Positions 5,374 to 60,700 are shown, counted from the stretch's first letter. The stretch is DNA of 64,000 nucleotides from an uncultured Bifidobacterium sp. (GCA_964594985.1 CAZQNQ010000006.1:1997-65996); one strand, 5' to 3'. Numbers and translations are program-made. Notes: generated by a model not told the origin, from the sequence alone.

Positions 5374-6111
5374 GTGAAAGCAACGTCAACCCAGTCTCCC
5401 GCTCCAATTCCCTTTCGCACCCGCGCCGGCCAGTATTGGCGCAAAGAAATCCGCCCGTTGCTCATTTTCGCGTTGATTCTCTTTTCCATCCGCTCCTCGC
5501 TCGCCGATTGGAACGATGTGCCGAGCGGCTCGATGCGCCCGACCATTCTCGAGGGCGACCGCATCTTCGTGAACAAACTCGCCTATGATCTCAAAGTGCC
5601 CTTCACCACCTGGCACATCGCCGAATGGGGCAATCCACAGCGTGGCGACATCGTGGTGTTCTTCTCGCCGCACGACGGCAAGCGCCTCGTCAAGCGCGTC
5701 ATCGGCCTGCCCGGCGACACCATCGAACTCCGCAACAATCAACTTGTCCTCAACGGCGCACCCGTCGAATACCAGCCCATCGCCGAGGAACTCCTGCGAT
5801 ACATTCTCGCCGCCGAACGCGAAGGCCGCGTCTTTGCCAGTGAAAAACTCCCCGGGCAGACACACGCGGTTGGTGGCTATCCCGCCGCGCCCGCGCCGCG
5901 GACCTTTGCTCCCATCGTTGTGCCGCAAGGCGAATACTTCATGATGGGCGACAACCGCGACGACAGCTTCGACTCCCGCTTCTGGGGCACGGTGAAACGC
6001 GAGAAGATCGTGGGTCGTGCCACCGCCGTGGTGCTCTCGTTCGACAAGAGTAATTACTGGCTGCCGCGGTGGGGAAGGTCGTTCACTTCATTGCGAAGTG
6101 ATGGGGATTAG
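5374..6111 (+). CDS. lepB: Signal peptidase I
   Basis: Catalytic Ser box SGSMRPTILEGD, Lys box KRVIGLPGD, and GDNRDDSFDSRFWG, all signature boxes of type I signal peptidases. GTG start per the ORF track. Confidence 0.85.
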   Translation: MKATSTQSPAPIPFRTRAGQYWRKEIRPLLIFALILFSIRSSLADWNDVPSGSMRPTILEGDRIFVNKLAYDLKVPFTTWHIAEWGNPQRGDIVVFFSPHDGKRLVKRVIGLPGDTIELRNNQLVLNGAPVEYQPIAEELLRYILAAEREGRVFASEKLPGQTHAVGGYPAAPAPRTFAPIVVPQGEYFMMGDNRDDSFDSRFWGTVKREKIVGRATAVVLSFDKSNYWLPRWGRSFTSLRSDGD

Positions 6112-6113
6112 CA

Positions 6114-6626
6114 TCATTTTGAGGGAGGGTTGTCTTCACCCAAGCCATCCTCAAAGTCTCGCTGCCCGTTTGGGTCGAAGAAGGCTCGATCAAATCCATC
6201 TTCAAGTTTGATCGGCTTGAACAGCACCTCTCCAGAATCTTTGAAGGCTTTGCAATACGCGAAGAATGTATCGTGGTTGTCAGTGATGACAAACTCAGCA
6301 TCAATCACCACAGCCCGAGCTATAATTTTGATGTCGTCTTTCAACGCATCGCGCTCCACACCTTTTGGACGCAGGCGTTTCCAATCAAGCTTTGCGGCCT
6401 TCTGAGCATCTTCCCAGTTGAATGGAAGCACAACACAACAGCGTAAAATATCCGCCGGGATTTCCTGCTTCACGCAGAATTCGGACGCGACAATCGTGGA
6501 AAGATAGATGGGAATCTGGCTCTCCAGAAAGTGTCTCCAGTAACGGCGCGCGGCTTCATTGTGCTTCCGATTGGAATCGGCGAGCGTGATGAAGAAGCTT
6601 GTGTCAATAAGAACTCCAGCAGCCAT
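6114..6626 (-). CDS. PIN-domain nuclease (VapC-like) with an acidic C-terminal extension
   Basis: Subset of ORF 6114..6674, starting at MAAGVLIDTSFF (ATG at 6626). Acidic residues sit at PIN-like spacing: LIDTS, ASEF, VITDNHD. The start lies 1 nt after the stop of the upstream gene (TAAAATG). Local GC is about 47-50%. Confidence 0.65.
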   Translation of the reverse strand: MAAGVLIDTSFFITLADSNRKHNEAARRYWRHFLESQIPIYLSTIVASEFCVKQEIPADILRCCVVLPFNWEDAQKAAKLDWKRLRPKGVERDALKDDIKIIARAVVIDAEFVITDNHDTFFAYCKAFKDSGEVLFKPIKLEDGFDRAFFDPNGQRDFEDGLGEDNPPSK

Positions 6627-6627
6627 T

Positions 6628-7404
6628 TTATCCTCCGCGCAAATCCCTAACCCATTTTGCTGCGTCAGGAACATCGGCCCACGCCTTGGTTCCCTTGGCT
6701 GCGAAGCGATCTAATGCGCCTTCGTCGTAGGTTGGTTGATAATCAACAAAGGTGATCAGTTGAATGCTTCGTAAATCGCCCGTGCGAAAATGTTGGTTTG
6801 CCCGCACGTGCAGGAGTGCTTTGTGGTAAAGCCGGTTCTCAATTTGTTCGCGCAGGTATCCTTGCGAAGCACCGATGATCAGTGTTTTGCCGGTGCGATC
6901 TAGTTTCAGGTGAATGTTTGCCTTATGGGTGCCCCCCATGTCCACGACTTGCCCGAACAGGTATTTTTCTACCGCGACCCACGGGACGATTTCACCAATC
7001 CGGTAGTCGGTTTTTTGACTGATCCGAAAGCCCGGCAGGTTTTCACACTTCGAGCGAACCTCATAGTCCAGTTCAGGATTGTCCTTTGTGCGTGACTGCC
7101 ATTTTTGAATGATTTCTGCGCGCTTGTAATCCAACTCGCCCAATACATCTTCTCGAGCCATCAGCTTCAGATCAGGTTCAAGGCTGGAAGCAACCACTAC
7201 CGGGAGCAGAACACGCAAGACATAGGAGCTTTTGGCAATTTCAACGTGCGCCTGGTCGAGCTTCAGTTTCTGGCTTCCGCTGATGAATGCCTCGACTTGC
7301 TGGTTGAACTCGTTGAACCGGGACAGGCCAATCGTCTTTGGAGTGATTTCTACTCCTTCCACTTTGCCGTGTAAGACAAACTCCATGGATGCCGCTTCGT
7401 TCAT
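6628..7404 (-). CDS. Hypothetical protein (258 aa), upstream partner of the PIN nuclease
   Basis: Long ORF with protein-like composition, tightly coupled to the PIN gene. I recognise no domain. It is far larger than classical VapB antitoxins. Confidence 0.5.
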   Translation of the reverse strand: MNEAASMEFVLHGKVEGVEITPKTIGLSRFNEFNQQVEAFISGSQKLKLDQAHVEIAKSSYVLRVLLPVVVASSLEPDLKLMAREDVLGELDYKRAEIIQKWQSRTKDNPELDYEVRSKCENLPGFRISQKTDYRIGEIVPWVAVEKYLFGQVVDMGGTHKANIHLKLDRTGKTLIIGASQGYLREQIENRLYHKALLHVRANQHFRTGDLRSIQLITFVDYQPTYDEGALDRFAAKGTKAWADVPDAAKWVRDLRGG

Positions 7405-7465
7405 TGCCTGCTCGCTGCCATACAGTAGCTCATTAACGGGAGTATTCGCAATAGCCGGCTACGAA

Positions 7466-7538
7466 CCAAACAAATCCATCTGCGGGGGCGGGGCGAGGTG
7501 CTTGAGTTTGTCGCGCTCCTGCTGGCGGCGCGGTTGGC
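7466..7538. repeat. Direct-repeat copy of the mutS 3-prime terminus (73 bp, 2 mismatches versus 8559-8631)
   Basis: ccaaacaaatccatctgcgggggcggggcgaggtgcttgagtttgtcgcgctcctgctggcggcgcggttggc compared with the true mutS end. On the minus strand it would encode QPRRQQERDKLKHLAPPPQMDLFGS. Confidence 0.85.
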
Positions 7539-7539
7539 C

Positions 7540-7794
7540 TTATCCGCCTGCCAATGTCTCCAACCGTTTCAGGGAAAAGACATCGCCACCCCGCAGGAAG
7601 AAGCGCGTGATTTGCTCGCGCAACTGGCGGTAGAGCGCGGGGTCGGTTTGCGCGAGTTGTACCGGCACGTCGCGCCGGGCGAAACGCACGAGCGCGGCGA
7701 GTTCGGCCCAGCGTTTTTGTTGGAAATAAACATCCACTTGGGCCGGGTCGGCCAGCAGGGCGCGGGCGGTCAATTCTTCTTCGCGGGCATTCAT
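7540..7794 (-). CDS. Hypothetical small protein (84 aa)
   Basis: ORF starting 3 nt after the stop of the NTase-fold gene. Its stop codon lies immediately before, and in frame with, a duplicated mutS tail. It contains no His residue, so it is not a HEPN RX4-6H protein. Confidence 0.4.
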   Translation of the reverse strand: MNAREEELTARALLADPAQVDVYFQQKRWAELAALVRFARRDVPVQLAQTDPALYRQLREQITRFFLRGGDVFSLKRLETLAGG

Positions 7795-7796
7795 GT

Positions 7797-8345
7797 TCAG
7801 ATTTCCAGCACGTCGAGATAGACGAGATTTTCGGTGGCGCGTTCGCGGGCTTGGGAATTGAATTCAACAATAATGCTCCGCACTCGTTGCAAGTCCGGGC
7901 GATGGCGGCTCAACAAAAAACGGATGTCGCTCAAGTCTTTTGGTTCCGCACGAATGAGCTTGGCGGCGATGAGATTTTCCACCGGCGGTCGAAAGAGATG
8001 CAATCGCCCCATGCGTTCTATCAACATGGGGTCAAAGTTTCCCAGTTGCGTCAATCCTGGCTCGATGAGTTGCAGATACGGGCGGTCGGGTTCGAGCGTC
8101 TGTTTGGGATCGAAGAGCAGGCCGATTTTTTCGGCTGCGGTCTTGAGTTCAAGCCGGTCGTAGTCACTCGCGGGTTTCCAGATGTCGAGGTCGGCGGAAG
8201 TGCGTCCATCCATGCCCCCAAACAAGCAAGCCGCCGAACCGATGAGACAGAGCCGGAGCGGAGAACCTTCTTTGCCGAGAGCTTGAGCGAGATCAGCCAA
8301 CACCGCCGACCACGCTTCGCCGTCGAGTTGTAGCTTCAAGGACAT
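7797..8345 (-). CDS. Nucleotidyltransferase-fold protein (minimal NTase / DUF6036-like)
   Basis: LIGSAACLFGGMDGRTSADLDIW matches the G-S...D-x-D signature of minimal nucleotidyltransferases. 182 aa. Confidence 0.55.
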   Translation of the reverse strand: MSLKLQLDGEAWSAVLADLAQALGKEGSPLRLCLIGSAACLFGGMDGRTSADLDIWKPASDYDRLELKTAAEKIGLLFDPKQTLEPDRPYLQLIEPGLTQLGNFDPMLIERMGRLHLFRPPVENLIAAKLIRAEPKDLSDIRFLLSRHRPDLQRVRSIIVEFNSQARERATENLVYLDVLEI

Positions 8346-8421
8346 TCAGTACGCGGTGGCATCATAACCAAAACTCGGTGGCGAATCAAACCAACAAAGA
8401 GGCCCGCACCTGTTGCTTGAT

Positions 8422-8441
8422 CCAAACAAATCCATCTGCGG
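8422..8441. repeat. Partial (20 bp) third copy of the mutS 3-prime terminus
   Basis: ccaaacaaatccatctgcgg is identical to the first 20 nt of the copies at 7466 and 8559. Confidence 0.6.
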
Positions 8442-8520
8442 CGCACGGACGGTCCCCGTCCGCAGCGGGTGAAGGGGGAAGTGGGTTTATGGATTATCCT
8501 ACATCTTTCTGTCTGGCGAC

Positions 8521-8548
8521 GCGCTGCGGCTGAGGACAGCCGCGCTCC
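8521..8548. repeat. REP hairpin, CAGCCGCGCTCC family
   Basis: gcgctgcggctgaggacagccgcgctcc, just downstream of the mutS stop. Confidence 0.6.
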
Positions 8549-8554
8549 AGCGAT

Positions 8555-11332
8555 TTACCCAAACAAATCCATCTGCGGGGGCGGGGCGAGTTGCTTGAGC
8601 TTGTCGCGCTCCTGCTGGCGGCGCGGTTGGCGGACGTTGCCTTCGGGAGTGAGTTCGGATTCTTCGAGGTTCACCAGGATTTGCTTCGCGCGTTCCAACA
8701 CTTCCTTCGGCACGCCGGCGAGACGCGCGACCTGGATGCCGTAGCTCTTGTCCGTGCCGCCTGCGACGATTTTGCGCAGGAAGACAATCGCGTCGTGCCA
8801 CTCGCGCACGGCGACATTGAAGTTCTTGATACGCGGCAGGCGTTGGGCGAGTTCGGTCAGTTCGTGATAGTGCGTGGCGAACAGGGTTTTCGCGCCAACG
8901 ATGTTGTGCAGGTATTCCACGATGCTCCACGCGAGGCTGAGGCCGTCGAACGTGCTGGTGCCGCGGCCGATTTCGTCCAAAATGATGAGGCTGCGCGGCG
9001 TGGCGTTGTTGAGGATGTTGGCCGTTTCGCTCATCTCGACCATGAAGGTGGATTGCCCGCGCGCCAGATCGTCGCTCGCGCCGATGCGGGTGAAGATGCG
9101 GTCCACGAGGTCAATGCGCGCTTCCTTCGCGGGAATGAAACTCCCGGTGTGCGCGAGCAATGTGAGTAGCGCCACCTGCCGGATATAGGTGGATTTACCC
9201 GCCATGTTCGGCCCGGTGATGAGGGCGATTTGCGGAGCGCCGAGCACTGCCTTGGCCTGTTTCGCGTCGCCTTCGGTTCGAGCCGAGGTGGTGCTCGGCG
9301 CTCCGCTGGAAAGCACCGCATCATTCGGCACGAAGCGTTCGTCCACCAAGCTTTGTTCCAACACCGGATGGCGGCCATCGGTGATTTGCAGCTCACCTTC
9401 GTCGCTGACTTGGGGGCGGCAATAGTCGTGCAATCGCGCGATCTCGGCGAAGGAGGCGAGCGCGTCGAGTTGGGCGAGGGCGGACGCGGTCTGCTGGATT
9501 TTGGCGAGTTGGCCGAGGACTTCTTCGCGGAGGCGTTGGAAGAGTTCGTATTCCAACTTCACGCTGCGTTCTTCCGCGCCGAGGATCTTGCCTTCCATGT
9601 CTTTCAATTCGGGCGTGATGAAGCGCTCGCCGTTGGCGACGGTCTGCTTGCGGATGTAATGCGGCGGGACTTTGTCGAGGTTCGACTTGGTGACTTCGAT
9701 GTAATAACCGAAGACGGAATTGAACCGCACTTTGAGCGAGCTGATGCCAGTGCGTTCGATTTCATCCTGCTGCAACTTGGCGAGCCAATCCTTGCCGCCG
9801 CGTTGGGCGTTGCGGAGTTCGTCGAGGTCGGGGCTGAAACCGTCGCGGATCATCCCGCCTTCCTTCACGGCGAGCGGCGGTTCGTCCACGATGGCGCGAC
9901 CGATCAGCTCGACGAGGTCGGGCGATTCGGAGAGTTGCGCGGTGAGGTTGGCGAGTAACGAGTTGCCCCTCACCCCGTCCCTCTCCCCATCCGATGGGGA
10001 GAGGGTGGCCGATAGGCCGGGTGAGGGGGTGTTCAAATTCTCGCCTGTAGCAGCCGACGTGAGGAGGCTCTGACTTCCTGCTTCCGAATTGAGCCTCCTT
10101 ACGGCGGCTGCTACGAAGGAGGAGAGGGTTTGCCGCAGGGCGGGAATCTGTTCCAGCGCCTGGCGCAGCACGACAAGGTCGCGCGCGTTGCCGCTGCCGG
10201 TGCTGAGGCGGCCCAGCGTGCGTTCAAGGTCTCGGACTTGCGTGAGTTGCGCGCGGAATGTGTCGAGGCTGGTGGAGTTTTCGATGAACGTCGCAACAGT
10301 TTCCTGACGTTGGCGAATGGGTTCAACGGCGGCGAGCGGTTGGGAAAGCCAGTTGCGCAGGAGCCGCGCGCCCATCGGCGTGGCGGTTTTGTTCAACGCG
10401 CCGTAAAGACAGGCGTTGCGCGGGGCGTCGCGGTGTTGTGGTTCGAGGATTTCGAGATGTCGTAGCGTGGTGTAGTCAAGCGCGAGGAAGTCCGTACGTT
10501 GATAGAATGACAGGCGCGTGAGGTGTTTCACGTCGCGCCGGAGATTTTGCGTGAGGTAATGCAGCGCGCCGCCCGCCGCGCCGATGGCGGCAGTGCGATC
10601 CTTCAACCCGAAGCCGTCGAGCGAGGCGACCTTGAAATGCTCGCGCACGGTGAATACGGCGGTCTGTGGGGCGAAGGTCCAGTCGTCGTAAGCGCTGACA
10701 GTCCAGCCCCGTCCTGTGGCTGCGCTCGTGAGAGCGCGGCTGACACTTTTTGGATCAGCCGTGTTCTCACGAACACAGCCACAGAGCAAGTCGCGGAGCG
10801 CAACGGCTTCCATCGGATGCACGATCTCGGCGGGGCGAAGGCGTTCGAGTTCGGTGAGGAGCGCGGCTTCGGCTTCGACTTCGGTGGTGAGGAAATCGCC
10901 AGTGGTCAAATCCACGAGCGCAAGGCCGAAGGTTTTCCCGGTGCTGACTACTGCGGCGAGGAAGTTGTTGCGCTCGGCGACAAGCATCCGTTCATCGAAG
11001 TGCGTGCCGGGGGAAAGGATTTGCGTGACCTCGCGATTGACGAGTTTGCCGGGCTTGGCTTCCTCGGTCTGCTCGCAGATGGCGACCTTGCGTCCGGCTT
11101 TGAGCAGGCGACTGATGTAATTGTTGGCCGCGTGATACGGCAGGCCGCACATCGGGATGCCGTTGCGGGCGGTGAGAGCGAGATTGATCAATTGAGAGGC
11201 GACCTGCGCGTCCTCAAAGAACATCTCGTAGAAATCGCCGAGGCGGAAGAGCAGGAGCGCGTCTTTGGGCAGTTCGCTTTTGATGCGGCGATACTGCGCC
11301 ATCATGGGAGTGAGTTGCGCTTCGGCAGACAT
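8555..11332 (-). CDS. mutS: DNA mismatch repair protein MutS
   Basis: N-terminal TPMMAQYRRIK...FYRLGDFYEMFFEDA-type mismatch-binding motif, Walker A GPNMAGKST, DEIGRGTSTFDG and FATHYHELT. It is 925 aa, longer than typical MutS, because of in-frame repeat insertions (see the repeat features). Confidence 0.95.
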   Translation of the reverse strand: MSAEAQLTPMMAQYRRIKSELPKDALLLFRLGDFYEMFFEDAQVASQLINLALTARNGIPMCGLPYHAANNYISRLLKAGRKVAICEQTEEAKPGKLVNREVTQILSPGTHFDERMLVAERNNFLAAVVSTGKTFGLALVDLTTGDFLTTEVEAEAALLTELERLRPAEIVHPMEAVALRDLLCGCVRENTADPKSVSRALTSAATGRGWTVSAYDDWTFAPQTAVFTVREHFKVASLDGFGLKDRTAAIGAAGGALHYLTQNLRRDVKHLTRLSFYQRTDFLALDYTTLRHLEILEPQHRDAPRNACLYGALNKTATPMGARLLRNWLSQPLAAVEPIRQRQETVATFIENSTSLDTFRAQLTQVRDLERTLGRLSTGSGNARDLVVLRQALEQIPALRQTLSSFVAAAVRRLNSEAGSQSLLTSAATGENLNTPSPGLSATLSPSDGERDGVRGNSLLANLTAQLSESPDLVELIGRAIVDEPPLAVKEGGMIRDGFSPDLDELRNAQRGGKDWLAKLQQDEIERTGISSLKVRFNSVFGYYIEVTKSNLDKVPPHYIRKQTVANGERFITPELKDMEGKILGAEERSVKLEYELFQRLREEVLGQLAKIQQTASALAQLDALASFAEIARLHDYCRPQVSDEGELQITDGRHPVLEQSLVDERFVPNDAVLSSGAPSTTSARTEGDAKQAKAVLGAPQIALITGPNMAGKSTYIRQVALLTLLAHTGSFIPAKEARIDLVDRIFTRIGASDDLARGQSTFMVEMSETANILNNATPRSLIILDEIGRGTSTFDGLSLAWSIVEYLHNIVGAKTLFATHYHELTELAQRLPRIKNFNVAVREWHDAIVFLRKIVAGGTDKSYGIQVARLAGVPKEVLERAKQILVNLEESELTPEGNVRQPRRQQERDKLKQLAPPPQMDLFG
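8559..8631. repeat. Functional mutS 3-prime terminus acting as the third direct repeat (att-like)
   Basis: Same 73-bp sequence as 7466-7538 (2 mismatches). Encodes the last about 24 codons of mutS. Confidence 0.85.
9234..9304. repeat. Palindromic element (GGAGCGCCGAGC family) inside the mutS ORF
   Basis: ggagcgccgagcac...gtgctcggcgctcc with perfect 14-nt arms. Translated within MutS as GAPSTTSARTEGDAKQAKAVLGAP. Confidence 0.8.
9966..10029. repeat. 63-64-bp palindromic element (CCCCTCACCCCG..CCCTCTCCCC family) inside the mutS ORF
   Basis: cccctcaccccgtccctctccccatccgatggggagagggtggccgataggccgggtgagggg. Near-identical copies at 21375, 37434 and 48700, plus arms of the 300-bp element. Confidence 0.85.
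10047..10114. repeat. Palindromic element (GTAGCAGCCG family) inside the mutS ORF
   Basis: gtagcagccgacgtgaggaggctc ... gagcctccttacggcggctgctac, with perfect outer 10-nt arms. Translated as ...AAAVRRLNSEAGSQSLLTSAATG. Confidence 0.75.
10714..10784. repeat. Palindromic element inside the mutS ORF
   Basis: ctgtggctg cgctcgtgaga gcgcggctga ... tcagccgtg ttctcacgaaca cagccacag, with nested perfect 9-nt and 7-nt arms. Confidence 0.7.
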
Positions 11333-15554: not shown

Positions 15555-15855
15555 TTAAGGCATGTTTTCAAAATGGATTTATTGGCTGAGTTCGAGGGGC
15601 GGCGAGTGGAATGGTTGGTGGCTCGCCCTCACCCCGGCCCTCTCCCCCGGGGAGAGGGGGACACGCTCGCTGCGGCGCGACGGATTGACAGTGGCGGATT
15701 TGACCACGTCCAACGACCGAGTACAAAAGGGCGGTGCGATGCTGCTCCCTCTCCCCGGGGGAGAGGGCCGGGGTGAGGGCGAGCGTGGCACTGATTTCAT
15801 GACGGGAGGCATTGCATCCCAGAGCCGTTGGAAAACATTTTGAAAACCACCCTGG
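15555..15855. mobile_element. About 300-bp MITE-like element, family B, copy 1
   Basis: Ends TTAAGGCATGTTTTCAAAATG ... CATTTTGAAAACCACCCTGG form terminal inverted repeats (core 12 nt perfect). The interior holds two inverted CTCACCCCGGCCCTCTCCCC arms. It is collinear with 31351-31651 with about 20 differences. Confidence 0.7.
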
Positions 15856-21303: not shown

Positions 21304-21374
21304 TGTGTCGCAGATGTCGGAAATTTATTCTGGCAAACGCCCTAGACTGGTTCTCTTAGATCGTTTCCGGACGG

Positions 21375-21436
21375 CCCCTCACCCCGGCCCTCTCCCCATC
21401 CGATGGGGAGAGGGTGGCCGAAGGCCGGGAGAGGGG
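21375..21436. repeat. 63-bp palindromic element (CCCCTCACCCC family), intergenic copy
   Basis: cccctcaccccggccctctccccatccgatggggagagggtggccgaaggccgggagagggg. Confidence 0.85.
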
Positions 21437-31350: not shown

Positions 31351-31651
31351 TTAAGGCGTGTTTTCAAAATGGATTTATTGGCTGAGTTTGAGGGCAGCGA
31401 GTGGAATGGTTGGTGGCTCGCCCTCACCCCAGCCCTCTCCCCCAGGGAGAGGGGGATACACTCGCTGCGGCTCGACGGATTGACAGTGGCGGGTTTTACC
31501 ACGTCCAACGGCCGAGTCCAAAAGGGCGGTGCGATGCTGCTCCCTCTCCCCGGGGGAGAGGGCCGGGGTGAGGGCGGGCGTGGCACTGATTTCATGGCGG
31601 GATGCCTTGCACCCCAGCGCCGCTGGAAAACATTTTGAAAACACACCCTAA
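31351..31651. mobile_element. About 300-bp MITE-like element, family B, copy 2
   Basis: Same ends (TTAAGGCGTGTTTTCAAAATG ... CATTTTGAAAACACACCCTAA) and the same orientation as copy 1. Sits inside the minus-strand lipid operon, between the NodB and LolA-like genes. Confidence 0.7.
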
Positions 31652-37405: not shown

Positions 37406-38446
37406 TTAGTGTGCGCTGGGGTTGGGCGATGCCCCCCTCACCCCGTCCCTCTCCCCATCGGATGGGGCGAGGGGGGCCGTCAGGGTGGGTGAGGGGTTGG
37501 CGTGCGGATTGGATTGTTCGTTGCCGTTCGGGGTGGGTTTGGCCGCTTCCCAGAACGGGAAAAAATTATACCACTGGAACGGGTCGCGCTTGACGATGGT
37601 TTCAAGGCGCGCGGCGAATTGCGTGGCACAGGCGCGGAGATGGGCGTCGCGTTGGTGATGGGGCGGATGATGCGGCGGCACGGGCGGAAAGCCGAAGAAG
37701 TGATAATGCCCGCCCGGTTCGCGCAAACTGAACACCGTGACGATCGGAGCGCCCGCAATCGCCGCCATGACGTAGCCGCCGATGGGGAAGTGCGCTTGCC
37801 CACCGAGGAATGAAATGGTCTGTGCCGGGCTGCCGTAGGTGCGGTCACCCATCATGCAGACGAGTTCACCGCGCCGCATCGCCGCGACAAGCTGGATGGC
37901 GTCGGTGGGCGAGCCGGTGAGCGGGATGAGTTTGAAATGTTGCTTTGCGGAGCGGTCCAGGGTCGCGCGGATGGCGGGCGCTTCCTTGTCAAAGCCGGTG
38001 ACGTTGATGGGGCATTTGACGCGTGAAAGGAGCTGGCCGGCGGCTTCCCAATTGCCGACGTGCGCGGTGAGGAGCAACACGCCTTTGCCGGCGGCGACGG
38101 CGTCGTGGATGTTCTGTTCGCCATCGAACGTGAAGGAAAATTTATTCGCGCCGCCGGCAAGGATGGCGGAGCGATCAATGATGGCGCGGCCGAACGAGTG
38201 GAAATGTTTGAACACATACCAGCGGCGTTTCCACCACGGGATTTTACCGAAGACGCGGCGGTGGAAATCCATTGTGGCCGGCACGTCGGGCGAGGCGAAG
38301 CTGAAATACAGCGCGGGCGGGATCGCGAAGAGATACGCGACGCGCGGGCCGAACCAGCGGATGAGCGCGAGGAAGAACGCGATGCCGCGTTTGCCGCCGC
38401 GCAACTGGCCGGTGCCGGACCAGTGTTTGGTTTCAGGCGCAGCCAT
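37406..38446 (-). CDS. LpxL/HtrB-family (lipid A lauroyl-type) acyltransferase
   Basis: LLTAHVGNWEAAGQ (the H-x4-E/D box of the LpxL/HtrB family) and an N-terminal membrane segment. The last about 30 codons are encoded by a 63-bp palindromic repeat (37434-37496). Confidence 0.7.
   Translation of the reverse strand: MAAPETKHWSGTGQLRGGKRGIAFFLALIRWFGPRVAYLFAIPPALYFSFASPDVPATMDFHRRVFGKIPWWKRRWYVFKHFHSFGRAIIDRSAILAGGANKFSFTFDGEQNIHDAVAAGKGVLLLTAHVGNWEAAGQLLSRVKCPINVTGFDKEAPAIRATLDRSAKQHFKLIPLTGSPTDAIQLVAAMRRGELVCMMGDRTYGSPAQTISFLGGQAHFPIGGYVMAAIAGAPIVTVFSLREPGGHYHFFGFPPVPPHHPPHHQRDAHLRACATQFAARLETIVKRDPFQWYNFFPFWEAAKPTPNGNEQSNPHANPSPTLTAPLAPSDGERDGVRGASPNPSAH
37434..37496. repeat. 63-bp palindromic element (CCCCTCACCCC family) forming the C-terminal tail of the LpxL-like ORF
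   Basis: cccctcaccccgtccctctccccatcggatggggcgaggggggccgtcagggtgggtgagggg. Translated as ...PTLTAPLAPSDGERDGVRG. Confidence 0.85.
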
Positions 38447-48643: not shown

Positions 48644-48699
48644 TTCCAGTTTAGAGCGTACTGCAAAAAGAATGGCGAAAACTCTGGTCGGACGGGCGG

Positions 48700-48761
48700 C
48701 CCCTCACCCCGGCCCTCTCCCCATCGGATGGGGAGAGGGTGGCCGCAGGCCGGGTGAGGGG
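48700..48761. repeat. 63-bp palindromic element (CCCCTCACCCC family), intergenic copy
   Basis: cccctcaccccggccctctccccatcggatggggagagggtggccgcaggccgggtgagggg, upstream of the GH43-LamG gene. Confidence 0.85.
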
Positions 48762-57785: not shown

Positions 57786-60700
57786 TCAGGGATAAATCAG
57801 GCGATAGAACACACTGCCCTGGTTCGCATCCACCGGCAGGCTTACGCTGTTCGTCGTGGCTGAACCCGGCACATCAAACCAATTGGTGCTAAGGCCCGCT
57901 GCCAAATCATTGGTCTGGACCTGCAAACGCCAGCCGAGGTGATCCGCCGGCCAGGACAGGGTGAGTACGCCATTTGAAACAGACATCGAAACGTCCACCG
58001 GCACGGTCGAACTGGGGATGGCGCTGACTTGAGTCGAGTTCAACCCTTCGCCGCTGATGTTGGCGGCGGAGACGACATAGTAATACGTCGTGCCGTTGAC
58101 CAAGCCCGGGTCGGAGCAGGTGGTCGTACTGACATTCGTAATCGTGGTGTACGATCCGCCGCTCGTCGTGGCGCGTTTCACTTTGTAACTGGTCGCGCTC
58201 GCGGATGCGCTCCAACTCAACCCGACCTGACCGTTGCCGGGAGTTGCGGTCAGACTCGTCGGCGCCGCCGGCACGCCGCCGTTGGAAGTGAACAGCGTGG
58301 AAACTTCGGCGGAACTCAACGCGCGGCGGTAAATGCGGAAATCATCCACGCGGCCGTTGAGGTAGGGATCGGAGTACTGTGATCGGCCAATGTAGTTCAA
58401 GCCGGTGTTGCCCAGATTCGACGGCTTGAGCGTCATGCTGGCGTTGGTGCCGACGGCGACGCCGTCCACGTAGAGGACGCCCGTCGTTCCCGACAAGGTC
58501 ACGGCCACGTGCCGCCAACCGCCGATGGCGAGGGCGGCGGTGCCGTTGATGCGTTGCTCGGTGCTGCCGCCGCTGGTGGTAATGGCGTAACGAATCGCGC
58601 CGCCGCCACCGACCGGAGCGAGAAACATATAATTGCCGGTGCCAGTACCGAAATCGAAGAGCCGCGCCCAAGTGCTGTTGGCATTCAAATAAACCCAGGT
58701 GCTGATGCTGAAATCATTCAACGTGCTGACTACGCCCGTGGGCAAATTGACATAGCCGCTGCTCCCATTGAGTGAAACAGCGTTGTTGATCTTGCCCGCC
58801 GCCGAGAAACTTGCGCCTGTTGCCAACGTGCCGTTCTTGCCGTTGCCGCTCGAATCGGCGGCGCTCGTGCCGCTGGCTTCGTTGAATTTCAGATAGGCCA
58901 AAAGCTCGGTGGGCGTTGCCGTTACTTGCGGAGAGTTGCCGCTTTCGCCCGCGCCGTTCGCGGCGGCCACCACATAGTAATAGGTGATGCCGTTCAGCGC
59001 GGTCGGGTCGGTGTAATTCGCGGACGTGGCCGTGACGATGGTCGTGTAAGGTCCGCCGCTCGTCGTCGCGCGTTTCACTTTGTAAGTGGGCACGCTGGCC
59101 ACGGCGGTCCAGGTCAAGGCGACCAGATTGTTGCCCAACGTCGCGGCGAGGCTGCTCGGTGCGGCGGGCAAACCTTCGGAGTTGGCCAAAGCCACAATCT
59201 GCGCGCCGCTCAACGCCTGATTGTAGATGCGGAAATCATCCACGCGCCCGTTCAGGTAGGGATCGCTGAACTGCGATCTGCCGATGTAATTTAGCGTCGT
59301 GTTGCCCAGATTTGACGGCTTGAGGGTCATGCTGGTGTTCGTGCCGACGGCCACGCCATCCACGTAGAGTGTTCCGGTCGTGCCGGACAACGTCACCGCG
59401 ACGTGATGCCACGCGCCCGCCGCGAGGGCCGGGCCGTTGATTTGCTGCTCGCCGCTGCCGGTGTTGATGGCGTAACGAACACTGTTTCCGCCGCTGACCG
59501 GAGCGAGGAACATATAAGCCGTCGTGCCCGTGCCGAAATCAAAGAGTCGCGCCCACGTGCCGTTGGCGTTGACATAAACCCACGCGGCGATGCTGAAGTT
59601 GCCCGAGAGCGAGCTCACCACGCCAGCGGGCAGAGTCGCGTAGTTGCCCGCGCCGTTTAGCCCGACCGCGTTGTCGAACTTGCCCGTCGTCCAACCCGCG
59701 CCCGCCACCAAAGTGCCGTGCCGCGTTCCGACGGAATCAAATGCAATCGTGCCGCTGGTTTCATTGAATTTCCAATGCGCGAACAGGGCAGTGGGCGATG
59801 CGGTCACTTGCATTGAGTTCGCGCTCTCGCCGACTGAGTTGGTGGCTGACACCACATAGTAATACGTTGCGCCGTTGATAGCGGTTGCATCCGTGTAAGT
59901 CGTCTCAGTCGGAGTGCCGATCGTGGTGTAAGGGCCGCCATTGACCGTGGCGCGTTTCACGTTGTAACTGGTGGCATCGGTGGATGCGGCCCAGTTCAAC
60001 AGGACTTGATTGTGACCCGGCATCGCGGCCAGACCCGCCGGCACGAGCGGTAATGTTGGGGTCGTTGTGGTTGCGTTGACTTCGGTGCTGTCGCCGCTTT
60101 CGCCGGAGTCGTTCGTTGCGGAGACAACGTAGTAATAAGTCGTAGCACCCGTCAGCCCCGCATCGGAGTAACTTAGTCCCTTAACATCGGCGGCAATCGT
60201 GGTGTAAGGTCCGCCGCTGGTCGTTGCTCGTTTGACGTTGAAACCGTCGGCACCTGCCTGATCGGCCCAAGTCAGATTGATTTGCTGACTGCTGGCGGGA
60301 GTGACTACCAAGCCCGTCGGCGCGGCGGAAATTTGCGGCGTGCCGAAAATCTGGCATTCGTAAAAGGAAGCCCAGCCACCGCCCGGAACGATGCCGGTCG
60401 CCGTGATGCGCACGTAACGCGCTGTCGTCGAGAAGGTATTAGTCGTAGTTCCGACGACAGCGTTGGCCGTCGCGTCCAAGGCCACGGTGTAGTTCACGTC
60501 ATTGGTGCTGACTTCAATCCGGTATTGGAACGAGTAACCCGGATACCAGTGGGTGACGATGCTGGTGATGTCGTGCACCGCGCCCAAATCCACACGCCAC
60601 CATTGCGGATACGCGCCGCCGTTCGCCGTCCAGCGAAGCGTGGGGATGTTTCCGTCGTTGCCATTGACTGGCTGATGTCCGCCCAGCGAACTGCTCGCGG

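What the first reader, a model, noticed from the sequence alone, without database searches (positions are those of the whole stretch)
7466..8631. The mutS 3-prime terminus is present three times and brackets a 1-kb two-gene cassette (att-like duplication without an integrase)
Seen in sequence: the last 73 bp of mutS (8559-8631) recur at 7466-7538 with only 2 mismatches, and a 20-bp fragment recurs at 8422-8441. The two full copies flank the NTase-fold gene and the 84-aa gene. The 84-aa ORF ends in TAA exactly one codon before the duplicated tail and in frame with it (TAA GGC CAA CCG CGC CGC CAG ...). Established knowledge: integrative elements that target the 3-prime end of a gene regenerate that end and leave a duplicated remnant as attL/attR. 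Here no integrase, recombinase or transposase is visible between lepB and mutS. Either the cassette was mobilised in trans, or it is a decayed remnant, or a cassette-type mechanism is operating.
Basis: partly seen in the sequence, partly recalled or inferred. Interest (0 to 1): 0.7.

Follow-up and report, generated by a model that had tools for sequence, protein, structure and literature searches.

The report
Displaced mutS ends mark recombination hotspot
The repeated end of the DNA-repair gene mutS is real, and it is most likely a scar left when DNA from related bacteria recombined in behind mutS and stacked small toxin-antitoxin-type gene cassettes there, not the attachment site of an integrating element.

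Summary
A 73-bp direct repeat (71/73 identical) at 7466-7538 and 8559-8631, plus a 20-bp copy at 8422-8441, brackets a DUF6036 nucleotidyltransferase gene and an 84-aa gene. It is not a generic REP.

Metagenomic relatives show empty sites (lepB and mutS 12-25 nt apart). L118 has PIN-p258 but no cassette, and L146 has the same cassette. Fifteen of 120 loci hold 2-3 mutS-tail copies separating other small cargo: VapBC-like, MazF-like, another NTase pair, an AriA/OLD-like ATPase.

The att-site reading is not supported:
- Displaced copies range from 20 nt to over 500 nt, and all end at the stop codon.
- No integrase was found.
- The same NT-p84 unit is bracketed by duplicated ends of four other genes elsewhere.

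Differences between intact and displaced tails fall 69% at third codon positions (78/113, p=1e-14) and are mostly synonymous. So the displaced tails evolved as working mutS ends in other lineages.

Best explanation: host-mediated recombination with diverged donor DNA, anchored in mutS, with an illegitimate join on the other side. New cargo enters next to mutS and displaces the resident tail. This is a new variant of known phenomena: insertion with long target duplication, Rhs/T6SS displacement arrays, and the E. coli mutS-rpoS hotspot.

The parts
5374..6111 (+). lepB (signal peptidase I). It is the conserved distal border of the variable region. In empty-site relatives its stop codon lies 12-25 nt from the mutS stop codon.
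   Evidence: Pfam Peptidase_S26, E=1.7e-47. Empty sites in L129, L137, L139, L175.
6114..6674 (-). PIN-domain gene (186 aa from the first ATG; gene callers give 170 aa, 6114-6626). It belongs to the oldest cargo layer, which has low G+C (~50% against ~61% in the flanks).
   Evidence: Pfam PIN, E=7.6e-6. Composition. Same module next to mutS in L118.
6628..7404 (-). 258-aa gene of unknown function, partner of the PIN gene in the oldest cargo layer.
   Evidence: No hit in Pfam, NCBIfam, PADLOC or PDB. Co-linear with PIN in L118 and in Logan contigs.
7466..7538 (-). Copy A: the displaced (old) mutS 3' end, reading ...QPRRQQERDKLKHLAPPPQMDLFGS*. It is continuous with the PIN-p258 layer. It may extend to 7541 (AAGGC) with a 9-nt deletion relative to the intact gene.
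   Evidence: L118 aligns continuously with window 6133-7518. Junction compared with L146.
7540..7794 (-). 84-aa gene (p84), second gene of the mobile two-gene unit. Predicted small all-helical protein.
   Evidence: Always follows the NTase gene in at least 9 genomic contexts. AF2 model pLDDT 78 with no significant structural match.
7797..8345 (-). DUF6036 nucleotidyltransferase-fold gene (182 aa), first gene of the unit.
   Evidence: Pfam DUF6036, E=6.4e-6. 569 homologues, the top 120 at 82-97% identity. Weak structural similarity to NTase-like proteins and the MenT1 toxin.
8361..8389 (-). Promoter-like site of the unit (TTGATT-17-TATGAT), conserved in all contexts. It marks the upstream limit of the mobile unit.
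   Evidence: Alignment of six contexts. Consensus scan. Extent of homology.
8422..8441 (-). Copy B: a 20-nt remnant of a mutS 3' end (PQMDLFG). It corresponds to the intact mutS tail that directly precedes the unit in L146.
8442..8554 (-). 113-nt structured filler (two G+C-rich hairpins) between copy B and the mutS stop codon. It is the youngest layer and is absent from L146.
   Evidence: Predicted folding energy -42.6 kcal/mol, and not found in other loci. No Rfam match. L138 has an analogous hairpin-only layer.
8555..11332 (-). mutS (925 aa), the conserved homology anchor. Copy C (8559-8631) is its functional 3' end with the QMDLF motif.
   Evidence: Pfam MutS_I to MutS_V. Tail conserved in relatives.

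Best explanation
The DNA just downstream of mutS is a recombination hotspot in this verrucomicrobial clade, and the repeated mutS tails are scars of successive acquisitions. In each event, DNA from a related but diverged lineage entered the cell, probably by natural transformation. It carried the 3' part of mutS plus whatever lay downstream of it. It paired with the resident mutS by homology on one side. This is homology-facilitated illegitimate recombination, also describable as gene-end displacement or insertion with long target duplication. The result is an intact mutS, the new cargo, and then the displaced resident tail still attached to the older cargo. The window shows three layers between lepB and mutS. 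The oldest is PIN-p258, with no scar. Next is the NT-p84 unit, with scar A. The youngest is a 113-nt hairpin filler, with scar B. The direct repeats then allow gene conversion (A and C are 97% identical), deletion, and reshuffling by tail-to-tail recombination. The cargoes are small toxin-antitoxin or defence-type modules, probably retained because they are addictive or protective. Shown: the architecture, the polarity, the empty sites, the variable boundaries, and that the displaced tails are former coding alleles. Inferred: the route of DNA entry, RecA dependence, and the illegitimate joining step.
For: (1) Empty sites and intermediate states exist: lepB and mutS are adjacent in L129, L137, L139 and L175; L118 has PIN-p258 only; L146 has the same NT-p84 insertion. 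(2) Polarity: L118 aligns continuously with window 6133-7518, from PIN through p258 and the spacer into tail A, so A is the old tail attached to its native downstream DNA. (3) 15 of 120 related loci hold 2-3 tail copies separating different cargo, including 3-tail arrays in L095, L106, L185 and L206. Remnants occur in 9 of 64 informative loci of the first batch and in 0 of 9 distant GTDB relatives. (4) Every copy ends at the mutS stop codon, where lineages stop being homologous. The upstream limit varies from 20 nt to about 530 nt, and some copies include MutS domain V fragments. (5) Differences between intact and displaced tails by codon position are [18,17,78], so 69% are third-position (p=1e-14 against 1/3; p=6e-7 against 0.46, the share expected if only the intact copy stayed under selection). 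Most are synonymous: L146 9 of 10 changed codons, L185 12 to 1 over 59 codons, L186 10 to 3 over 44 codons. (6) The downstream region is hypervariable, with 153 protein clusters among 215 ORFs, so one-sided homology is the rule. (7) No integrase was seen among 136 downstream ORF representatives, and the cargo segments are only 0.1-2 kb. (8) Precedents: HFIR displacement arrays (PMC5361080); insertion with long target duplication (PMC2853133); the mutS-rpoS hotspot and horizontal exchange of mutS alleles (PMC4209514). (9) A ComEC competence gene is present in a related MAG (L213).
Against: The NT-p84 unit is bracketed by duplicated gene ends in 5 of 9 independent contexts. Under anchored recombination, each context needs a donor that already carried the unit beside the same gene, so the first arrival of the unit at each locus is unexplained. 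For the four non-mutS targets the codon-position counts are uninformative ([9,5,10]). Within a locus the two tails often share lineage-specific variants (L108, L111, L162), so donors were close relatives, and for close relatives two-sided homology might have been expected. No recombination breakpoint is visible in the window's own mutS, although the insertion predates the split from L146. In published experiments HFIR is rare and usually comes with deletion. Transformation, RecA dependence and microhomology at the joints were not tested. The integrase screens list only the top 25 families each, so a weak match could have been missed.
Confidence: 0.6

Rival explanations
1. De novo long target-site duplication. 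Each cassette is inserted by a break-and-repair process, for example two nicks tens of nt apart, fill-in, and capture of a foreign fragment by end joining or template switching. This duplicates 20-130 nt of the target on the spot. Only insertions whose duplication restores an intact neighbouring gene survive. This is the strict reading of 'insertion with long target duplication'.
For: The same NT-p84 unit is bracketed by duplicated ends of five different genes, in both orientations and once at a gene's 5' end. The unit has constant limits, from promoter to stop codon. Tails within a locus share lineage-specific variants. The phenomenon is documented for RM units, with the mechanism unknown.
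Against: The 69% third-position, mostly synonymous differences between intact and displaced mutS tails cannot come from neutral decay of a local duplicate (p=6e-7 even if the intact copy keeps evolving at synonymous sites). In all mutS loci homology ends at the stop codon. The copies often differ exactly at the wobble base of the last codon and in the type of stop codon, whereas a random staggered cut would often extend past the stop. In L228 the adk copies are 95% identical over 40 nt and then very divergent over the last 45 nt.
Confidence: 0.15
2. RecA-dependent cassette mobility. Once a tail-cargo-tail structure exists, recombination between the direct repeats excises a circle holding the cargo plus one tail. 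After transfer, the circle integrates by a single homologous crossover into the conserved mutS tail of another genome. The gene end then acts as portable homology, giving an integron-like array without an integrase.
For: Tail-cargo-tail arrays exist. The same junction is found in the window and L146. A 129-nt displaced copy is shared by L095 and L142 with different neighbours on both sides. Copies A and C are homogenised, 71/73 identical, while the L146 copies are about 89% identical. The tail is strongly conserved across the clade.
Against: The 20-75 nt of homology is near or below the efficient RecA threshold. The model does not explain how the first tail-flanked structure forms. No circular junction was observed: the 1039-bp Logan contig is a graph fragment, not a circle. 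The model overlaps heavily with the best explanation and may simply be its second step.
Confidence: 0.1
3. Site-specific integration. The mutS tail is an attB site, and the cassettes are integrase-less satellites or decayed remnants (of the CIME type) moved by a tyrosine or serine recombinase encoded elsewhere in the genome.
For: Duplication of a gene's 3' end that regenerates the gene is the classic attL/attR signature (established knowledge). Arrays resemble tandem accretion. Only 64 kb of this genome could be inspected, so a recombinase acting in trans cannot be excluded.
Against: There is no constant core or boundary: displaced copies range from 20 nt to more than 500 nt. The terminal 20-mer is not specially conserved in displaced copies. 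No integrase was seen within 6 kb downstream of mutS in about 60 loci, only one transposase-like hit. The same unit carries analogous duplications of the rimO/miaB-like, adk and cysN 3' ends and a HAD-hydrolase 5' end. The displaced tails evolved as coding sequence.
Confidence: 0.08
4. Assembly artefact: a repeat-induced misjoin placed the cassette behind mutS.
For: Short-read unitigs break inside both repeat copies, so those data do not confirm the linkage across the repeats.
Against: L146, an independent JGI contig from a related organism with diverged copies (about 89% identical), has the same architecture. Fifteen other loci from different samples show analogous structures. The two A-specific mismatches show that the copies were resolved in the window.
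Confidence: 0.02

Closest known systems
Insertion with long target duplication (Nobusato et al. 2000; Furuta, Abe & Kobayashi 2010, PMC2853133; Mruk & Kobayashi 2014, PMC3874152)
   Same: Small addiction-type gene units with no mobility genes, flanked by long and variable direct repeats (30 to >400 bp). The repeats match a single-copy target in empty-site genomes and sometimes overlap a gene's 3' end. Most cases are in naturally competent bacteria, and the mechanism is unknown.
   Different: It is described for restriction-modification units. Here the cargo is TA-like or defence genes with no restriction enzyme, which argues against the proposed dependence on restriction-enzyme DNA breaks. Here the events also stack into arrays at one hotspot, and the substitution pattern shows that the two copies come from different alleles.
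C-terminal or sequential displacement arrays formed by homology-facilitated illegitimate recombination (Rhs and CDI orphan modules; Vibrio cholerae T6SS effector-immunity arrays, Kirchberger et al. 2017, PMC5361080)
   Same: A conserved upstream gene serves as the homology anchor. New modules enter next to it, and old 3' fragments with their downstream genes are pushed distally and accumulate as arrays. No integrase is involved.
   Different: In those systems the displaced piece is the variable toxic tip of a polymorphic toxin with its immunity gene, and keeping it is selected for immunity. Here the anchor is a housekeeping repair gene whose tail is conserved, and the displaced piece is a functionless scar between unrelated cargoes.
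The mutS-rpoS polymorphic region of Enterobacteriaceae, and horizontal exchange of mutS alleles (PMC4209514, citing Denamur et al. 2000 and the LeClerc/Cebula studies)
   Same: The DNA immediately downstream of mutS is a mosaic, horizontally exchanged variable region. mutS itself is frequently replaced by recombination. The proposed driver is loss and re-acquisition of mismatch repair in hyper-recombining mutators.
   Different: A different phylum and different neighbours. Displaced mutS-tail scars and TA cassette arrays were not found described for E. coli in the papers read. The mutator-rescue link is not tested here.
Integrative elements at gene 3' ends and their integrase-less derivatives (CIMEs), and integron cassette arrays (own knowledge)
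   Same: A duplicated gene end regenerates the target gene. Cargo lies in tandem arrays separated by a repeated sequence, with the newest cargo next to the insertion point.
   Different: There is no recombinase, no constant core, variable repeat length, several unrelated target genes for the same unit, and repeats that evolved as coding sequence. The defining features were tested and not met.

Membership tests
Site-specific integrative element / att site (CIME-like, integron-like) | A recombinase gene inside or next to the element in at least some occupied sites | tested here: not met
   None between lepB and mutS. The cargo segments are 0.1-2 kb. No integrase family appears in the Pfam or PHROGs summaries of 136 downstream ORF representatives, and there is one transposase-like hit (only the top 25 families are listed, so weak hits could be missed).
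Site-specific integrative element / att site (CIME-like, integron-like) | A constant core or crossover region giving the same repeat boundaries in independent insertions | tested here: not met
   The upstream limit of displaced copies is 20, 27, ~33, 42, 51, 57, 66, 78, ~88, >126 and ~530 nt in different loci. The terminal 20-mer carries 1-3 substitutions in displaced copies, like the rest of the copy.
Site-specific integrative element / att site (CIME-like, integron-like) | Specificity for one target sequence | tested here: not met
   The same NT-p84 unit is bracketed by duplicated ends of mutS, a rimO/miaB-like gene, adk, cysN and a HAD-hydrolase gene.
Insertion with long target duplication (criteria of Furuta et al. 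2010) | Direct repeats longer than 30 bp flanking the insert that match a single-copy sequence in an empty-site genome | tested here: met
   73-nt repeat. A single mutS tail in the empty sites L129, L137, L139, L175 and in L118.
Insertion with long target duplication (criteria of Furuta et al. 2010) | Insert shorter than 20 kb and free of other mobile-element genes | tested here: met
   1,020 bp between copies A and C, holding two genes and no mobility gene.
Insertion with long target duplication (criteria of Furuta et al. 2010) | Insert contains restriction and modification genes | tested here: not met
   The cargo is a DUF6036 NTase plus an 84-aa protein. Other cargoes are PIN/RHH, PemK, DUF6932 and AAA_15. 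The case works like this family but lies outside the cargo class for which the family was defined.
HFIR / gene-end displacement arrays (Rhs, CDI, T6SS type) | A conserved anchor gene, with displaced 3' fragments stacked distally and the newest module nearest the anchor | tested here: met
   Arrays in L095, L106, L185, L206 and the window. Polarity shown with L118 and L146.
HFIR / gene-end displacement arrays (Rhs, CDI, T6SS type) | Intact and displaced copies derive from different alleles brought together by horizontal transfer | tested here: met
   78 of 113 differences are at third codon positions and mostly synonymous.
HFIR / gene-end displacement arrays (Rhs, CDI, T6SS type) | One homologous and one illegitimate (microhomology) joint; dependence on DNA uptake and RecA | not testable with these tools
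   Donor sequences are unknown and no experiments are possible. ComEC is present in a related MAG.
Toxin-antitoxin module (for the NT-p84 cargo) | Two small co-directional genes with their own promoter, inherited as a unit | tested here: met
   A 2-nt gap between the genes; a conserved promoter; the pair is kept together in at least 9 contexts.
Toxin-antitoxin module (for the NT-p84 cargo) | Homology of one partner to a known toxin or antitoxin family | tested here: inconclusive
   DUF6036 only. No PADLOC, NCBIfam or PDB sequence hit. Weak Foldseek matches to the MenT1 toxin and an NTase-like protein (E 0.3-1, probability 0.5-0.7; model pLDDT 71.5). p84 has no match.
REP / MITE-type dispersed repeat | Many copies at unrelated loci | tested here: not met
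   Three hits in the 64-kb window, all at this locus. In 120 metagenome contigs the 20-mer lies at mutS ends or displaced tails near them.

The most novel reading that the evidence does not exclude
Small addiction or defence cassettes in these bacteria, with the DUF6036 NTase-p84 pair as the clearest case (5 of 9 contexts), may move by a dedicated and still unknown insertion process. That process would target gene ends and create long target duplications that keep the neighbouring gene intact. It might be driven by the cassette's own products, such as a Pol-beta-fold nucleotidyltransferase acting in break repair. The mutS arrays would then be its most frequent landing site, with later allelic recombination of mutS producing the synonymous-difference pattern.
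Probability: 0.1. Interest if true: 0.8.

Novelty: new variant of a known kind. Interest (0 to 1): 0.5.

Why it matters
How toxin-antitoxin and small defence modules move between chromosomes without any mobility genes is a long-standing gap. This locus and its relatives give a readable record. Cassettes are stacked behind a conserved housekeeping gene, and each layer is marked by a displaced copy of the gene's end. The substitution pattern of those copies shows that they came from other lineages.

This extends 'insertion with long target duplication', so far described for restriction-modification units, to cargo that has no DNA-cutting enzyme. That argues against the idea that restriction-enzyme breaks drive the process. 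The locus also parallels the enterobacterial mutS-rpoS hotspot in a distant phylum. This suggests the flank of mutS may be a general entry point for foreign DNA, possibly tied to loss and re-acquisition of mismatch repair. On the practical side, displaced gene ends could serve as a computational marker for integrase-independent acquisitions in metagenomes.

Tried and rejected
1. Generic REP: rejected, since the 20-mer has only 3 hits in the window and in metagenomes occurs only at mutS ends.
2. Free circular cassette suggested by the 1039-bp Logan contig: rejected. The contig starts 30 nt inside copy A, as a k=31 unitig would, and does not close on itself. Its right end at 8547 is unexplained.
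3. Functional read-through fusion of p84 to the clamp-binding tail (the in-frame TAA GGC): rejected, because L146 is out of frame.
4. Integron-type attC core sites (RYYYAAC/GTTRRRY): inspected by eye in the tail and not matched. No formal fold test was done.
5. The GTDB genome scan for close relatives gave only MutS of 68% identity or less and no remnants, so it did not help with synteny.
6. An exact-protein look-up of MutS found nothing.
7. Conserved terminal sequences or inverted repeats at the cassette ends: none; homology stops at the promoter and at the p84 stop.
8. A mosaic breakpoint in the window's own mutS: none seen; L146 is nearest throughout.
9. The 113-nt filler as a dispersed element or known RNA: not found elsewhere, and no Rfam hit.
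10. The 290-nt repeat at 15.5/31.4 kb as a second displaced gene end: no, it is intergenic REP-containing DNA.
11. Cargo function from PADLOC, NCBIfam, PDB sequence search and Foldseek: nothing significant.
12. The Pfam and PHROGs alignment-trick screens list only the top 25 families, so the absence of integrases is strong but not absolute.

Full report
**1. The observation**

The window holds a 73-nt direct repeat at 7466-7538 (copy A) and 8559-8631 (copy C). The two are 71/73 identical. The first 20 nt, CCAAACAAATCCATCTGCGG, recur exactly at 8422-8441 (copy B). Allowing up to 3 mismatches, that 20-mer occurs only at these three places in 64 kb, against 0.01 expected by chance.

Copy C is the functional 3' end of mutS (8555-11332, minus strand; all five MutS Pfam domains). 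It encodes ...QPRRQQERDKLKQLAPPPQMDLFG*. The QxDLF ending is conserved in relatives. From my own knowledge it corresponds to the beta-clamp-binding motif of MutS.

Between lepB (5374-6111, plus strand) and mutS lie, all on the minus strand:
- a PIN-domain gene and a 258-aa gene, in DNA of about 50% G+C against about 61% in the flanks;
- copy A;
- an 84-aa gene (p84);
- a 182-aa DUF6036 nucleotidyltransferase gene (NT);
- copy B;
- a 113-nt hairpin-rich filler.

No recombinase is present.

**2. Not an assembly circle and not a REP**

A 1039-bp Logan contig holding just NT-p84 matches window 7509-8547 exactly and begins 30 nt inside copy A. Contigs holding lepB-PIN-p258 stop inside copy A as well. 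These are de Bruijn graph breaks at a repeat, not circles.

**3. Relatives**

The species-representative genome collection holds no close relative: the best MutS is 68% identical, from Verrucomicrobiota MAGs. The exact 20-mer, however, is found in at least 120 metagenome contigs. Nearly all are at the 3' end of mutS genes 67-98% identical to the window's.
- **Empty sites.** lepB and mutS converge 12-25 nt apart in L129, L137, L139 and L175.
- **An intermediate.** L118 has PIN-p258 directly behind a single mutS tail and no NT-p84. It aligns continuously with window 6133-7518, from PIN through p258 and the spacer into copy A. Copy A is therefore the old mutS end, still attached to its native downstream DNA.
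- **The same insertion.** L146 has the same insertion, with the same junction, in the window's nearest relative.
- **Other cargo between tails.** Fifteen loci hold two or three tail copies separating other cargo:

| Locus | Cargo between tail copies |
|---|---|
| L095 | PIN + RHH |
| L108 | PemK/MazF + partner |
| L111 | DUF6932 NTase pair |
| L162 | AAA_15 ATPase, best matching PARIS AriA and OLD |
| L106, L142, L098, L107, L186, L206 | other small genes |
| L138 | hairpin-only filler |

L095, L106, L185 and L206 are arrays with three tails. L178, L181 and L188 carry large mutS 3' fragments (135-530 nt) that run into non-mutS DNA. Nine more distant GTDB relatives have no remnants.

**4. Anatomy of the copies**

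In mutS orientation, every copy ends at the stop codon. Copies in one locus often differ exactly at the wobble base of the last Gly codon and in the stop codon itself, TAA against TGA. The upstream limit varies from 20 nt to more than 500 nt. L095 and L142 share a 129-nt displaced copy that joins a MutS domain V fragment to the tail. It is truncated at different points and has different neighbours on both sides. In pairs where only one copy had to match the search pattern, the other copy carries 1-3 changes in the terminal 20-mer, so there is no specially protected core.

In L146 the displaced tail begins TAA-AAT-GAAGGC.... The window has TAA-GGC-CAACC, which is the same start with a 9-nt deletion. 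In L146 the tail is also out of frame with p84. The 'in frame, one codon after TAA' feature is therefore a by-product.

**5. The cargo unit moves, and the signature is not specific to mutS**

NT has 569 homologues, and the best 120 are 82-97% identical, far more conserved than MutS. The NT-p84 pair occurs in at least nine different genomic contexts. Homology between contexts runs only from a conserved promoter (GGTTTGATT-N17-TATNAT, window 8389-8361) to the p84 stop codon, with no terminal repeats.

In five of the nine contexts the unit is bracketed by a direct repeat that is a duplicated end of the neighbouring gene:

| Context | Duplicated gene end | Repeat |
|---|---|---|
| window | mutS 3' end | 73 nt |
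| L220 | rimO/miaB-like gene 3' end, convergent | 52 nt, 87% |
| L228 | adk 3' end, convergent | 40 nt at 95%, then 45 divergent nt through the stop |
| L230 | cysN 3' end | 46 nt including the stop |
| L229 | HAD-hydrolase gene 5' end | 90 nt |

The intact gene copy always survives.

**6. Discriminating test**

If the copies arose by duplication on the spot and the displaced one then decayed, their differences should spread over all codon positions. The third-position share should be at most about 46%, if only the intact copy stayed under selection. Observed over 16 mutS pairs without frameshifts: [18, 17, 78] differences at positions 1, 2 and 3. That is 69% at position 3 (p=1e-14 against 1/3; p=6e-7 against 0.46), and most are synonymous. 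In L146, 9 of 10 changed codons are synonymous. In L185 the split is 12 to 1 over 59 codons, and in L186 it is 10 to 3 over 44 codons.

The displaced tails therefore spent most of their divergence time as working mutS ends in other lineages. The two copies in a locus are two alleles brought together by horizontal transfer. For the four other target genes the counts ([9, 5, 10]) are too few to decide.

**7. Explanation**

The data fit recombination with diverged donor DNA anchored in mutS. A donor fragment holding the mutS 3' part plus its downstream cargo pairs with the resident mutS by homology. The downstream region is hypervariable (153 protein clusters among 215 ORFs) and offers no homology. 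The far end is therefore joined illegitimately, often inside the resident's last 20 to several hundred nt. The intact gene then carries the incoming tail, the cargo follows, and the resident tail is displaced together with the older cargo. Repeating this builds arrays.

The window records three layers:
- PIN-p258, the oldest, with low G+C and no scar;
- NT-p84, with scar A, gained before the split from L146 and absent from L101 and L118;
- the 113-nt hairpin filler, the youngest, with scar B and absent from L146.

Copies A and C share derived states and are 97% identical, while the copies in L146 are about 89% identical. This indicates gene conversion between the repeats. The repeats can also delete or reshuffle cassettes.

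No integrase family appears among 136 representative ORFs from within 6 kb downstream of mutS; there is only one transposase-like hit. These screens list only the top families.

**8. Comparison with what is known**

Three precedents apply.
- **Insertion with long target duplication** was described by Kobayashi's group for restriction-modification units. Those inserts have no mobility genes and are flanked by 30 to >400-bp target duplications. Some overlap gene 3' ends, and most are in naturally competent species. The mechanism is unknown and was attributed speculatively to DNA breakage by the restriction enzyme (PMC2853133, PMC3874152). The present cases meet the structural criteria but carry no RM genes.
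- **Sequential or C-terminal displacement by homology-facilitated illegitimate recombination** was proposed for Rhs/CDI orphan modules and V. cholerae T6SS effector-immunity arrays (PMC5361080). The topology and polarity are the same. The difference is that here the anchor is a housekeeping gene and the displaced piece is a functionless scar.
- **The mutS-rpoS region of Enterobacteriaceae** is a mosaic HGT hotspot immediately downstream of mutS. There mutS alleles themselves are exchanged, which has been attributed to loss and re-acquisition of mismatch repair in hyper-recombining mutators (PMC4209514). That offers a reason why mutS of all genes collects such scars, but it is not tested here.

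Membership in the att-site or integron class fails on three tested defining features: recombinase, constant core and target specificity.

**9. What remains open**

Anchored recombination explains how a cassette spreads once it sits beside a given gene. It does not explain how NT-p84 first reached nine different loci, nor why five of them show a duplicated gene end. A de novo long-duplication mechanism (rival 1) or RecA-mediated circle integration (rival 2) may contribute. A dedicated mechanism cannot be excluded (novel case, about 10%).

The function of the cargo is only tentatively TA-like. It is a two-gene operon with its own promoter. The NT model (pLDDT 71.5) gives weak, non-significant matches to NTase-like proteins including the MenT1 toxin. 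p84 is a small helical protein without matches. No paper in the searchable library mentions DUF6036.

**10. Verdict**

It is a new variant of known recombination-driven acquisition, namely gene-end displacement or long target duplication, here at a mutS hotspot in Verrucomicrobiota with TA and defence cargo. Interest is moderate (0.5).

Noticed in passing
window 9959-10027 (also 21368-21436, 37427-37495, 48693-48761); 10047-10114; 10714-10784; 9232-9306: A 69-nt G+C-rich palindromic REP-like element occurs four times in the window, once inside the mutS coding sequence, where it reads in frame as ...SATLSPSDGERDGVRG.... Three further palindromes also lie inside mutS, two of them encoding LTSAATG. 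So mutS tolerates several in-frame palindrome insertions, which helps explain its 925-aa length.
   Followed up: partly
window 15555-15847 and 31351-31642: A direct repeat of about 290 nt (93-95% identical), 15.8 kb apart. It is intergenic and contains the REP-like palindrome. It is not a displaced gene end, and its role is unknown.
   Followed up: partly
window 7797-8345 and 7540-7794; loci L207-L232: The DUF6036 NTase and its 84-aa partner are unusually conserved: hundreds of metagenomic variants are 82-97% identical, while MutS in the same clade is 67-80% identical. They sit at nine or more different loci. No paper in the searchable library mentions DUF6036.
   Followed up: partly
window 6112-7465: The PIN-p258 pair forms a low-G+C island (~50% against ~61%). 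The 258-aa protein has no hit in Pfam, NCBIfam, PADLOC or PDB. The PIN stop codon lies 2 nt from the lepB stop codon.
   Followed up: partly
L081 (= window 7509-8547), right end at window 8547: The Logan unitig ends 11 nt before the mutS stop codon, inside the hairpin GCGCTGCGGCTGAGGACAGCCGCGC and not at a repeat copy. This suggests a branch in the assembly graph, from either a population variant or another genomic copy of this hairpin outside the window.
   Followed up: no
L162:3822-5711 (minus strand), between a displaced mutS tail and mutS: A 629-aa AAA_15 ATPase, best matching PARIS AriA and OLD-family models in PADLOC, sits as single-gene cargo at the same hotspot. The mutS flank therefore also collects anti-phage defence genes.
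   Followed up: partly
window 58000-60300: A series of diverged repeats with a period of 882-897 nt (families D3-D9), probably a large repetitive surface protein gene.
   Followed up: no
L002, L004, L005 (GTDB relatives), last codons of mutS: The A+T-rich codon choice GAT TTG TTT for the terminal D-L-F of MutS is kept even in relatives with only 52-65% MutS identity and in high-G+C genomes. This may reflect nucleotide-level constraint at the gene end or simply codon bias near stop codons.
   Followed up: no
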